Source: Octopus vulgaris (Eukaryota). From it: a stretch of 64,000 nt of DNA. The position numbers were made by a program. The stretch's first letter is position 1; the number at the start of each line of letters is the position of its first letter. Below, one piece after another: positions 27,984 through 28,860 of this stretch. The stretch lies in the NCBI GenBank assembly GCA_951406725.2, contig OX597815.1, positions 46,500,001 to 46,564,000 on the forward strand. The letters are read 5' to 3'.

Positions 27984-28047
<64 letters not shown>

Positions 28048-28860
28048 TTATACGATATAGTGCATATTTATACACATAAGGAATCCACTTAGTGTGAGAT
28101 TCAGCACATTAGAGAGAACATCTAGGTTCTATATCCGTTATTTTTGTGGTTTATAGAACCTAGATGTTCTCTCTAATGTGCTGAATCTCACACTAAGTGG
28201 ATTCCTTATATGTATAAATATGCACTATATCGTATAACTAATATATAGTCTTCTTGACTAATTTTTTTTGCACGTTAGACCACAGGAAATGTAAATTTTG
28301 ATTGAATATTTTTAATTTAATTAAATTCCATTTCCCTTTGATATGATTAAACATTATAAATTTTTGGATAAATTTCGGTTAAAGTTGGCGGTTTTTTATT
28401 GTAGCCAACGATAGGACTGCGATTGCGCAGAAAATTTGAAAAGTTAGTTCGTATAAACACGAGACAAGTAGCGGTGCTTGTCTTCTGTCTCTTATACGTT
28501 TAACCCTAGGTTGGACCTCGCCGAAGAAGATCAGACCTTGCGAGCTCCCCGACTTGCTAAAAGAAGATCAGAAACCAATTTGGTCCGGGGTACTAGATGG
28601 TAAATGTTTTTCATTTCCAAATTTATTCCTGTCGAATTTTATCCGTTATTTTTGTGGTTTATAGAACCTAGATGTTCTCTCTAATGTGCTGAATCTCACA
28701 CTAAGTGGATTCCTTATGTGTATAAATATGCACTATATCGTACAACTAATATATAGTCTTCTTGACTAATTTTTTTTGCACGTTAGACCACTGGAAATGT
28801 AAATTTTGATTGAATATTTTAAATTTAATTAAATTCCATTTCCCTTTGATATGATATATA

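What the first reader, a model, noticed from the sequence alone, without database searches (positions are those of the whole stretch)
28045..28855. Complete PLE-style insertion architecture without any ORF
The layout is (TA)n, an 87-bp inverted piece, repeat A, a TATA/hairpin/HHR segment, repeat A', then (TA)n. The repeats are nearly identical and about 508 bp apart. This is what reverse transcription of more than one round of a circular or tandem ~510-nt RNA, plus 5' inversion, would leave.
Basis: partly seen in the sequence, partly recalled or inferred. Interest (0 to 1): 0.72.

Follow-up and report, generated by a model that had tools for sequence, protein, structure and literature searches.

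The report
ORF-less Penelope-type retroposon with hammerhead-like motif
This is a small non-coding mobile element that was copied into a TA-repeat in the tandem-plus-inverted style typical of Penelope-like retrotransposons and carries a slightly damaged hammerhead-ribozyme-like motif; it is a fresh example of a kind of element already described in animals.

Summary
The described layout is real. (TA)n 27987-28045 is followed by an 88-nt inverted piece (28046-28133). Then come a 216-nt partial unit (28132-28347), a full 508-nt unit (28348-28855) and a short (TA)n. No reading frame exceeds 74 codons.

A second copy, about 67% identical, lies at 2700-3136. It is about one unit long, has the same 3' end, and sits in the (TA)n tail of a SINE-like repeat.

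Rfam finds no ribozyme. My own descriptor finds a type I hammerhead-like motif at homologous places in both copies and nowhere else in the window. Predicted cleavage is after C28585. Each copy has one core substitution.

A decayed Penelope-like element (PLE) with a GIY-YIG endonuclease lies at 56445-57421. It is also in (TA)n and has an inverted 5' copy.

Best reading: a non-autonomous, PLE-mobilised retroposon of the non-LTR retrozyme kind, copied from a template longer than one unit. The DNA cannot tell a circular template from a tandem one. This is a new member of a known kind, of moderate interest.

The parts
27987..28045 (.). Left (TA)n target microsatellite, 59 bp
   Evidence: (TA)n tracts of >=12 bp cover 2.8% of the window (64 tracts).
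28046..28133 (-). 88-nt inverted 5' piece: the reverse complement of unit positions 28152-28239 / 28660-28747. Its outer end abuts (TA)n at the place where the unit has an internal TAATATATAG. Its inner end shares 2 nt (TA, 28132-28133) with the start of the direct part.
   Evidence: 1 mismatch to A and 1 to A', at different sites.
28132..28347 (+). Repeat A: the 3'-terminal 216 nt of an upstream, 5'-truncated unit (pseudo-LTR-like partial tandem)
   Evidence: 4 mismatches in 216 against A'.
28348..28855 (+). One full 508-nt unit. The first ~20-30 nt (28348-~28375) follow the unit junction and have no clear counterpart in copy 2 (possible 'tail').
   Evidence: Folds better than shuffles (z about -5 circular or linear, 0 of 100 shuffles as low).
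28384..28430 (+). Two small hairpins conserved in copy 2 (GTTGGC/GCCAAC 28384-28409; CTGCG/CGCAG 28417-28430)
28451..28497 (+). Long hairpin containing TATAAA (28452-28457). Conserved in copy 2, with one pair changed on both sides.
   Evidence: A promoter function is inference only.
28515..28591 (+). Type I hammerhead-like motif. Helix I 28515-28520 with 28586-28591 (6 bp). Core 28521-28527 reads CCGAAGA (position 4 is C, not U). Helix II 28529-28532 with 28566-28569, with a 33-nt loop. GAAA 28571-28574. Helix III 28574-28577 with 28581-28584. Predicted cleavage after C28585.
   Evidence: Not found by Rfam. Not the minimum-energy fold of the isolated stretch.
28640..28855 (+). Repeat A': the 3'-terminal 216 nt of the full unit, ending ...GATATGAT. 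This is the shared 3' end of both copies and the presumed start point of reverse transcription.
28793..28843 (+). 3'-terminal stem-loop ending 12 nt before the element's end. The outer stem GGAAATG/CATTTCC is kept in copy 2 as GGAAGTG/CATTTCC.
   Evidence: fold; alignment. A role in RT recognition is inference.
28854..28869 (.). Right (TA)n, 16 bp, running into (TATG)n
2700..3136 (+). Second copy of the family. It is about one unit long (437 bp) and 330 of 495 aligned columns are identical to copy 1. It has the same 3' end. It lies between (TA)8 (2684-2699, the tail of a SINE-like repeat) and TATATATA(TG)n.
2838..2908 (+). Hammerhead-like motif of copy 2. Helix I CCUG/CAGG. Core 2842-2848 reads UUGACGA (position 3 is U, not C). 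Helix II GAUUU/AAAUC. GAAA 2892-2895. Cleavage predicted after C2904.

Best explanation
The locus is one insertion of a non-autonomous, non-coding retroposon with a unit of about 0.5 kb. It uses the machinery of endonuclease-bearing Penelope-like elements (PLEs) and belongs to the class published as animal 'non-LTR retrozymes'.

Shown:
- The family has at least two dispersed copies with one fixed 3' end.
- Both copies lie in (TA)n.
- Neither copy codes for anything.
- Copy 1 holds 1.42 head-to-tail unit lengths plus an inverted 88-nt 5' piece.
- Both copies carry a hammerhead-like motif, conserved hairpins and a TATAAA.

Inferred:
- A GIY-YIG endonuclease cut a (TA)n tract.
- Reverse transcription started at a fixed internal site (...GATATGAT), next to a conserved 3' stem-loop.
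- It ran over more than one unit of a multimeric template. That template was either a read-through transcript of a tandem master array or a circular RNA made by hammerhead cleavage and ligation.
- The inverted piece arose in one of two ways. Either the other target strand primed on the unit's internal UAUAUA (twin priming), or the cDNA end snapped back on itself. The two products then joined through a 2-nt TA overlap.

This locus has only one hammerhead, and its core carries a substitution. It is therefore a product of the cycle and cannot itself release a circle.
For: Anatomy:
- Searches give the coordinates, 4 mismatches in 216 between A and A', and 1 mismatch in 88 from the inverted piece to each.
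- The two informative sites show that all three pieces were identical when inserted. The inverted piece shares G with A' at 28210/28718 and T with A at 28235/28743.

Mobility and fixed 3' end:
- Copy 2 at 2700-3136 ends in the same ...GATATGAT.
- It interrupts the (TA)n(TG)n tail of a SINE-like repeat. Of that repeat's 8 copies that reach the 3' end (query included), 6 run straight into TATATA.
- A profile search finds no further copies in the window.

Target bias: both insertions lie in (TA)n, which covers 2.8% of the window.

No coding capacity. Of 240 ORFs of >=75 codons in the window, 213 were scanned in Pfam. RT domains appear only in a Gypsy element (5.2-8.8 kb) and a LINE (58.6-61.6 kb).

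Hammerhead-like motif:
- The only 2 hits in the window are the 2 copies, against a shuffle mean of 0.52-0.53 per window.
- The strict version gives 3 hits in 300 shuffled windows.
- 25 of 26 pair cells are standard pairs, against 15-58% when partners are slid. Two pairs changed on both sides.
- RNAalifold recovers helix II on its own.

Structured RNA: z about -5 for copy 1 and -2.5 to -2.9 for copy 2.

PLEs in the same genome:
- The GIY-YIG remnant at 56762-57028 scores E 5.5e-5 in Pfam.
- It has 434 relatives at E<=1e-3. Of 12 long relatives scanned, 10 have a C-terminal GIY-YIG, 7 have RVT_1 and 6 have both.
- It lies just after (TA)n 56359-56444, and its left end is the reverse complement of its own 3' end.

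Literature:
- Partial tandems, an adjacent inverted 5'-truncated copy and a (TA)n bias are listed as PLE hallmarks. Non-autonomous PLEs that make pseudo-LTRs are described (PMC8557442, passages).
- PLE reverse transcription starts at internal sites of a multi-copy RNA, and both target strands are cut and extended (PMC11167929, main text).
- Non-LTR retrozymes and tandem cDNA from circles are proposed in PMC7229834 (passages).
- Retrozymes as PLE derivatives: bioRxiv 10.64898/2026.07.22.740005.
Against: - Rfam finds no hammerhead at all.
- My descriptor was loosened after a first empty pass, so its chance figures are optimistic.
- Each copy breaks one invariant core position.
- The hammerhead fold is not the minimum-energy fold of the isolated copy-1 stretch (z -0.14).
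- One of the two double changes (helix I) is CpG-to-TpG on one side and CpG-to-CpA on the other. CpG decay could produce that without selection.
- There are only two copies. One has the tandem junction and none is permuted.
- The PLE remnant in the window shares no sequence with the element, including its 3' end, so no autonomous partner is identified.
- The unit (508 nt) is longer than the ~170-400 nt given for animal retrozyme RNAs (PMC7229834 abstract).
- No RNA or population data exist here.
Confidence: 0.7

Rival explanations
1. It is a remnant of an autonomous PLE rather than a self-standing non-autonomous family. On this reading the 508-nt unit is the pseudo-LTR/UTR part of a coding PLE whose ORF was lost.
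For: pLTRs of PLEs carry the hammerhead and promoter (PMC4209133 passages; PMC8557442). Retrozymes are reported to be close to pLTRs (bioRxiv 10.64898/2026.07.22.740005).
Against: - The template had a 508-nt period with no ORF inside it: A, then 292 nt, then A'.
- Copy 2 differs at a third of aligned columns yet has the same ORF-less internal order. The ORF-less unit therefore predates both copies.
- No RT or EN remnant adjoins either copy.
Confidence: 0.1
2. It is a dispersed repeat of some other kind (for instance a LINE-dependent SINE). At this locus it was later partly duplicated in tandem and folded back by DNA-level events such as replication slippage, unequal exchange or fold-back repair in a microsatellite-rich region.
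For: - The window is full of microsatellites and holds a LINE with an APE endonuclease and RT.
- Copy 2 is a plain single unit.
- 5' inversions are also known for LINE-1 insertions (recalled from memory, not from a call).
Against: - There is no tRNA, 5S or 7SL head (ARAGORN 0 genes in the window; no Rfam match at gathering score in the window).
- There is no A-rich or LINE-like tail.
- The outer end of the inverted piece lies exactly at an internal TATATA of the unit next to (TA)n, and the inner joint has a 2-nt overlap. These are signatures of priming and microhomology joining.
- The same tandem/inverted style recurs at a true PLE in the window.
- A, A' and the inverted piece are equally diverged from each other, as expected if all arose in one event.
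Confidence: 0.1
3. It is a miniature LTR retrotransposon (TRIM-like, or an LTR-type retrozyme): two 216-bp LTRs around a 292-bp core.
For: The size and the direct terminal repeats fit. A Gypsy element is present in the window.
Against: - The repeats start TA.. and end ..AT, not TG..CA.
- No primer-binding-site-like TGG run follows A.
- The 40 nt before A' are pyrimidine/AT-rich, not a polypurine tract (read).
- Copy 2 is core plus 3' repeat only. That is a 5' truncation, not a solo LTR or a complete element.
- The inverted 5' piece has no place in LTR integration.
- The hammerhead-like motif is type I and lies in the core, not in the repeats.
Confidence: 0.03
4. The tandem and inverted parts are assembly artefacts, that is, a collapsed or chimeric join in a repeat-rich region.
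For: PMC8557442 notes that such PLE structures often cause problems in shotgun assemblies. The arms form a near-perfect palindrome.
Against: The three copies of the shared segment differ at private sites. The joints show microhomology at sensible places. There are no N runs in the window.
Confidence: 0.04

Closest known systems
Animal non-LTR retrozymes (Cervera & de la Pena 2020, PMC7229834; Li, Clavereau & Pollet 2026, bioRxiv 10.64898/2026.07.22.740005)
   Same: - Non-coding, low GC (34%), head-to-tail units.
- A type I hammerhead-like motif in the unit.
- Structured RNA.
- Co-occurrence with PLEs in the genome.
- Proposed copying of a multimeric or circular RNA into tandem cDNA.
   Different: - The unit is 508 nt, against about 170-400 nt.
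- Only 1.42 units and one hammerhead are at this locus.
- The hammerhead has a 33-nt loop 2, unpaired A's beside helix II and one core substitution per copy, and Rfam does not recognise it.
- Expression and circles are untested.
Insertion architecture of EN+ Penelope-like elements (Penelope/Poseidon, Neptune, Nematis, Naiad; PMC8557442, PMC11167929)
   Same: - Partial tandem forming a pseudo-LTR.
- An inverted 5'-truncated copy at the 5' side.
- Insertion in (TA)n.
- A fixed internal start of reverse transcription.
- A hammerhead in the repeated, non-coding part.
   Different: - There is no RT-EN ORF.
- The whole unit is about 0.5 kb instead of 3-4 kb.
- The inverted piece does not start at the element's 3' end but 108 nt upstream of it, at an internal TATATA.
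Non-autonomous Chlamys PLEs such as MRC1 of Chlamydomonas (PMC8557442, passage)
   Same: ORF-less elements that still make pseudo-LTRs and multicopy head-to-tail insertions in microsatellites.
   Different: - They come from a different kingdom and PLE clade.
- They target (CA)n/(C)n.
- Most Chlamys lack canonical hammerheads.
- They share 3' ends with known autonomous families, which could not be tested here.
Twin priming / 5' inversion of LINE-1 insertions
   Same: An inverted 5' segment joined to a direct 3' segment through microhomology, explained by priming from both target strands.
   Different: Here the inverted segment duplicates sequence that is also present in the direct part. That needs a multimeric template, a second template molecule or cDNA snap-back.

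Membership tests
Penelope-like element (autonomous) | Single ORF with a telomerase-like RT and a GIY-YIG endonuclease | tested here: not met
   The longest non-microsatellite frame is 74 codons. No Pfam RT or GIY-YIG in ORFs near either copy.
PLE-type insertion (structural signature) | Partial tandem (pseudo-LTR): a 5'-truncated copy ahead of a full one | tested here: met
   A 28132-28347 is followed by the full unit 28348-28855. Spacing is 508, with 4 mismatches in 216.
PLE-type insertion (structural signature) | Inverted 5'-truncated copy adjacent at the 5' side | tested here: met
   28046-28133 is the reverse complement of 28152-28239 / 28660-28747.
PLE-type insertion (structural signature) | Insertion bias for microsatellites, (TA)n for Neptune/Naiad-type endonucleases | tested here: met
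   2 of 2 copies lie in (TA)n, which covers 2.8% of the window. Only two copies were available.
PLE-type insertion (structural signature) | Optional 30-40-bp 'tail' between the two RT start sites | tested here: inconclusive
   About 20-30 nt after the junction (28348-~28375) have no clear counterpart at the 5' end of copy 2. The region is AT-rich and there are only two copies.
Non-LTR retrozyme | Type I hammerhead ribozyme in the repeat unit | tested here: inconclusive
   A motif with all three helices, GAAA and GUC is present in both copies. Each copy has one core substitution (U4C in copy 1, C3U in copy 2). Rfam is negative. Cleavage is untested.
Non-LTR retrozyme | Short, low-GC, non-coding units in head-to-tail repeats (dimers to multimers) | tested here: inconclusive
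   Non-coding and 34% GC. Copy 1 has only 1.42 units and copy 2 has 1. The unit of 508 nt lies above the usual range.
Non-LTR retrozyme | 'Active' element: a hammerhead in every repeat, so that a monomer can be excised (definition in bioRxiv 10.64898/2026.07.22.740005, Fig. 1 legend) | tested here: not met
   There is one hammerhead-like motif at each locus. The partial unit A does not reach the motif.
Non-LTR retrozyme | Expressed as linear and circular RNA | not testable with these tools
   No transcriptome was available.
SINE (LINE-dependent) | Pol III-type head (tRNA, 5S, 7SL) and a LINE-matching or A-rich tail | tested here: not met
   ARAGORN finds 0 genes in the window. Rfam finds nothing at gathering score. 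The 3' end is ...GATATGAT followed by (TA)n. The LINE tail was not compared in detail.
TRIM / LTR retrozyme | LTRs with TG..CA ends, PBS, PPT and a short TSD | tested here: not met
   The repeat ends are TA..AT. No PBS-like or polypurine stretch is seen (read). Copy 2 is a 5'-truncated form. A TSD cannot be judged in (TA)n.
MITE / TIR transposon | Terminal inverted repeats at both ends | tested here: not met
   The inverted arms are adjacent or internal, not terminal. The right arm ends 108 nt before the 3' end. Copy 2 has no inverted repeat of this kind.

The most novel reading that the evidence does not exclude
The locus is a DNA footprint of rolling-circle reverse transcription. On this reading a ~508-nt circular RNA was made by hammerhead self-cleavage at 28585/28586 and ligation. 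A PLE enzyme then copied it for 1.4 turns from a fixed start site. The cDNA end snapped back with a set loop length to make the inverted piece. The same 18-nt spacing is seen at the inversion joint of the unrelated GIY-YIG PLE remnant in this window. If so, animal retrozymes longer than those described move through circles, and PLE inversion joints follow a rule.
Probability: 0.15. Interest if true: 0.6.

Novelty: new member of a known kind. Interest (0 to 1): 0.33.

Why it matters
The locus gives a compact, fairly young example (about 2% divergence between its repeats) of how ORF-less hammerhead-bearing repeats are laid down. It shows the full PLE signature: (TA)n target, partial tandem, inverted 5' piece and fixed 3' end. 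That supports the published view that animal retrozymes ride on PLE machinery.

The joints are readable to the nucleotide. There is a 2-nt overlap at the inner joint, and the outer joint sits on an internal TATATA of the unit. The family would therefore be a good substrate for a genome-wide study of how PLE enzymes prime and resolve insertions, and of whether circles or tandem transcripts are the template.

It also shows that Rfam-based scans miss hammerheads with long loop-2 insertions.

Tried and rejected
- **Rfam scans.** I scanned the locus, its core, copy 2, the whole window and the PLE remnant. There were no ribozyme hits. The only hits were sub-threshold miRNA-type matches, which merely reflect the long palindromes.
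- **First hammerhead descriptor.** It allowed no unpaired bases and found nothing in copy 1 and one non-conserved chance hit in copy 2.
- **Folding of the isolated hammerhead stretches**. There is no thermodynamic signal in copy 1 (z -0.14). Copy 2's best fold keeps helices I and II (z -1.09).
- **Shuffle control of the pair counts**. With two sequences it is uninformative (119 of 500).
- **More copies in the window.** BLAST and an nhmmer profile find none beyond the two loci.
- **Public DNA.** One pattern scan of the bacterial/archaeal genome collection gave 0 hits, as expected for an animal repeat.
- **Word-indexed protein search** with the 89-aa endonuclease remnant against longer proteins found nothing. 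The exhaustive HMMER search did find relatives.
- **Similarity between the ORF-less element and the PLE remnant**: none.
- **MITE, Helitron and TRIM readings** were rejected on end structure.
- **Source organism.** It was not determined. The SINE-like repeat tails reminded me of cephalopod sequences, but that is memory only.
- **Supplements.** Those of the bioRxiv preprint were closed and those of PMC7229834 (its Fig. S9 model) were not opened. They may hold retrozyme consensus sequences or size ranges that bear on the comparison.
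Full report
**1. What is in the sequence**

The window is AT-rich (about 30-40% GC over most of its length) and has no N. It is crowded with microsatellites and transposon remains:
- a Gypsy-type element at about 5.2-8.8 kb;
- a LINE with an APE endonuclease and RT at 58.6-61.6 kb;
- a piggyBac-type fragment near 37 kb.

At the finding, (TA)n runs from 27987 to 28045. The layout that follows is:
- **Inverted piece, 28046-28133.** These 88 nt are the reverse complement of 28152-28239 and of 28660-28747, with one mismatch to each.
- **Direct sequence, from 28132.**
  - 28132-28347 (repeat A) matches 28640-28855 (repeat A') with 4 mismatches in 216. The spacing is 508.
  - So 28348-28855 is one full 508-nt unit, preceded by the last 216 nt of another.
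- **Right flank.** After 28855 comes a 16-bp (TA)n that merges into (TATG)n.

The two sites where the inverted piece differs from A or from A' are private changes, one in A and one in A'. All three pieces were therefore identical when laid down and have since diverged by about 1-2%.

No frame over the locus exceeds 74 codons, apart from one made of microsatellite.

**2. A second copy defines the element**

BLAST of the locus against the window finds a diverged relative at about 2700-3136 (E 9e-36).
- In a global alignment, 330 of 495 columns are identical.
- It ends in the same ...GATATGAT as copy 1.
- It begins roughly 20-30 nt after the point that corresponds to the unit junction 28347/28348.
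- It is therefore about one unit long, not permuted, and has no tandem part.

It lies between (TA)8 and TATATATA(TG)n. The (TA)8 is the tail of a SINE-like repeat (2500-2683). Of that repeat's 8 copies whose match reaches the 3' end (this one included), 6 run straight into TATATA, several then into (TG)n. Those serve as paralogous empty sites, so copy 2 is an insertion into a (TA)n tract.

(TA)n tracts of 12 bp or more cover 2.8% of the window. Two of two insertions in them is therefore unlikely by chance, although two is a small sample. A profile of the family finds nothing else in the window.

**3. The hammerhead question**

Rfam gives no hammerhead or any other ribozyme. This holds at the gathering score for the whole window and at E<=1 on the locus or E<=10 on its core and on copy 2. 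A strict descriptor of my own was also empty.

After allowing one mismatch in CUGANGA and one unpaired base on each side of helix II, a type I motif appears at homologous positions in both copies.

In copy 1 the parts are:

| Part | Position | Detail |
|---|---|---|
| Helix I | 28515-28520 with 28586-28591 | 6 bp |
| Core | 28521-28527 | CCGAAGA |
| Helix II | 28529-28532 with 28566-28569 | around a 33-nt loop |
| GAAA | 28571-28574 | |
| Helix III | within 28574-28584 | 4 bp |

Copy 2 has the same plan, with core UUGACGA and cleavage after C2904.

Evidence that the motif is not chance:
- These are the only two hits of the descriptor in 64 kb on both strands. Dinucleotide shuffles of the window give 0.52-0.53 hits per window (150 and 300 shuffles).
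- With copy 1's own helix lengths, shuffles give 3 hits in 300 windows.
- On the two-sequence alignment, 25 of 26 pair cells are standard pairs, against 15-58% when partners are slid by 1-3 columns.
- Two pairs changed on both sides and one changed on one side.
- RNAalifold, given no hint, recovers helix II with its double change.

Evidence against:
- The descriptor was loosened after seeing nothing.
- Copy 1 has C at core position 4 and copy 2 has U at position 3. The two deviations are at different positions, so an intact ancestor is a reasonable but unproven inference.
- The helix I double change involves two CpG sites, which decay fast.
- The isolated copy-1 stretch prefers another fold.
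- The 43 nt between the core and GAAA are unusual. PMC8557442 does mention PLE cases with the two core halves 35-50 nt apart (Methods passage).

I put the chance that this is, or descends from, a real hammerhead at about three in four. I make no claim that these two copies still cleave.

**4. Other features of the unit**

The 508-nt unit folds much better than shuffles, whether treated as a circle or as a linear RNA. For copy 1, z is about -5 and 0 of 100 shuffles are as low. For copy 2, z is -2.5 to -2.9.

Conserved local hairpins:
- 28384-28409;
- 28417-28430;
- a long one at 28451-28497 that contains TATAAA (28452-28457) and shows one double change between the copies;
- a stem-loop at 28793-28843, 12 nt from the 3' end. 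Its outer stem survives in copy 2 despite a 19-nt internal deletion.

That the TATAAA is a promoter, and that the 3' stem-loop is the enzyme's landing site, are inferences by analogy with PLEs (PMC8557442 passages; PMC11167929 main text).

**5. A real PLE next door**

I scanned 213 of the window's 240 ORFs of 75 codons or more in Pfam. The 27 left out were 26 inside the Gypsy and LINE bodies and one microsatellite frame. One more mobile-element domain turned up: GIY-YIG at 56762-57028 (E 5.5e-5).

What the endonuclease remnant is:
- An exhaustive HMMER search gives 434 relatives at E<=1e-3 and 60 at E<=1e-10.
- In long relatives the match lies at the extreme C-terminus. Of 12 scanned, 10 have GIY-YIG, 7 have RVT_1 and 6 have both. 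This is the domain order of canonical PLEs.
- The best full-length relative (P0002, 58% identical over the remnant) has a C-x4-C-x2-C motif ahead of the endonuclease. PMC8557442 ties that linker type to Neptune-like clades and, as a hypothesis, to (TA)n targeting.
- The window copy is broken by a stop and a frameshift.

How the insertion is built:
- It is 5'-truncated and starts right after (TA)n 56359-56444.
- Its left 195 bp are a diverged reverse complement of its own 3' end.

So PLEs that target (TA)n and leave inverted 5' copies exist in this genome. This particular one shares no sequence with the ORF-less element, so it is not shown to be its partner.

**6. Mechanism**

The published picture of PLEs has these parts:
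- insertions are 5'-truncated;
- they are often partial tandems forming pseudo-LTRs;
- they often have an inverted 5'-truncated copy at the 5' side (PMC8557442);
- the enzyme cuts and extends both target strands in AT-rich DNA;
- it starts reverse transcription at fixed internal sites of an RNA that spans several tandem copies;
- it does not need hammerhead cleavage in vitro (PMC11167929).

For retrozymes, PMC7229834 proposes that a primed circular RNA gives tandem cDNA (Discussion passage).

Copy 1 fits either version. cDNA synthesis began at ...GATATGAT and ran back 722 nt. It passed the hammerhead site once and the start phase once.

The outer end of the inverted piece lies where the unit reads TAATATATAG, next to the (TA)n target. 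Its inner end overlaps the direct part by TA.

Two routes give exactly this product:
- **Twin priming.** The other target strand primes on the internal UAUAUA of a template, and the two cDNAs join by microhomology.
- **Snap-back.** The first cDNA folds back on itself with an 18-nt loop and then joins to (TA)n.

I cannot tell them apart. None of the three 5' ends seen (two in copy 1, one in copy 2) lies at the hammerhead site, so there is no sign that cleaved linear monomers served as templates. A circle and an uncleaved tandem transcript leave the same DNA.

**7. Comparison and verdict**

The element works like a non-LTR retrozyme or non-autonomous PLE, and I file it there as a probable member.

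| Test | Result |
|---|---|
| Structural PLE-insertion features | met |
| Non-coding, low-GC, head-to-tail nature | met in part |
| Hammerhead | probable but imperfect |
| Circular RNA | untested |

It is not an autonomous PLE, a SINE of the usual kind, a TRIM or a MITE (see the membership rows).

The concept, including the PLE link and the tandem-cDNA model, is in print (PMC7229834; bioRxiv 10.64898/2026.07.22.740005; PMC8557442 for non-autonomous Chlamys). This is therefore a new member of a known kind.

It has some unusual traits: a 508-nt unit, a long loop 2, and an inverted piece primed at an internal TATATA.

Noticed in passing
window 56445-57421: A 5'-truncated, decayed canonical Penelope-like element. 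The C-terminal GIY-YIG remnant at 56762-57028 is broken by a stop and a frameshift. The insertion lies right after (TA)n 56359-56444, and its left ~195 bp are the diverged reverse complement of its own 3' end. Its long relatives are RT plus C-terminal GIY-YIG proteins of about 700-780 aa.
   Followed up: yes
window 28134-28151 and 56678-56695: Both PLE-type insertions have exactly 18 nt between the arms of their head-to-head joint. This may be coincidence or a constant of the inversion mechanism. There are only two cases.
   Followed up: partly
window 2500-2683 and at least 7 other places (e.g. 15047-15203, 47015-47167, 48419-48561, 26707-26863): An abundant SINE-like repeat ending ...CCCGTCG followed by (TA)n and often (TG)n. 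ARAGORN sees no tRNA in the window. The repeat seeds many of the window's microsatellites and provided the target for copy 2.
   Followed up: partly
window 28046-28239 and 56639-56734: The long near-perfect palindromes made by the inverted joints score as sub-threshold miRNA-precursor look-alikes in Rfam (MIR2599 56 bits against a cut-off of 120; mir-3688 41 against 84). If transcribed they could feed small-RNA pathways. No evidence here.
   Followed up: no
window 5226-8847; 58608-61636; 36849-37463: A Gypsy-type LTR retrotransposon (zinc knuckle, protease, RT, RNase H, integrase), a LINE with an APE endonuclease and RT in three shifted frames, and a piggyBac-type transposase fragment.
   Followed up: no
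window 2373-2410: CTGATGA followed by a GC-rich UUCG-type hairpin lies upstream of copy 2. By eye it looks like half a hammerhead, but it lacks GAAA. Neither Rfam nor my descriptor reports it.
   Followed up: partly
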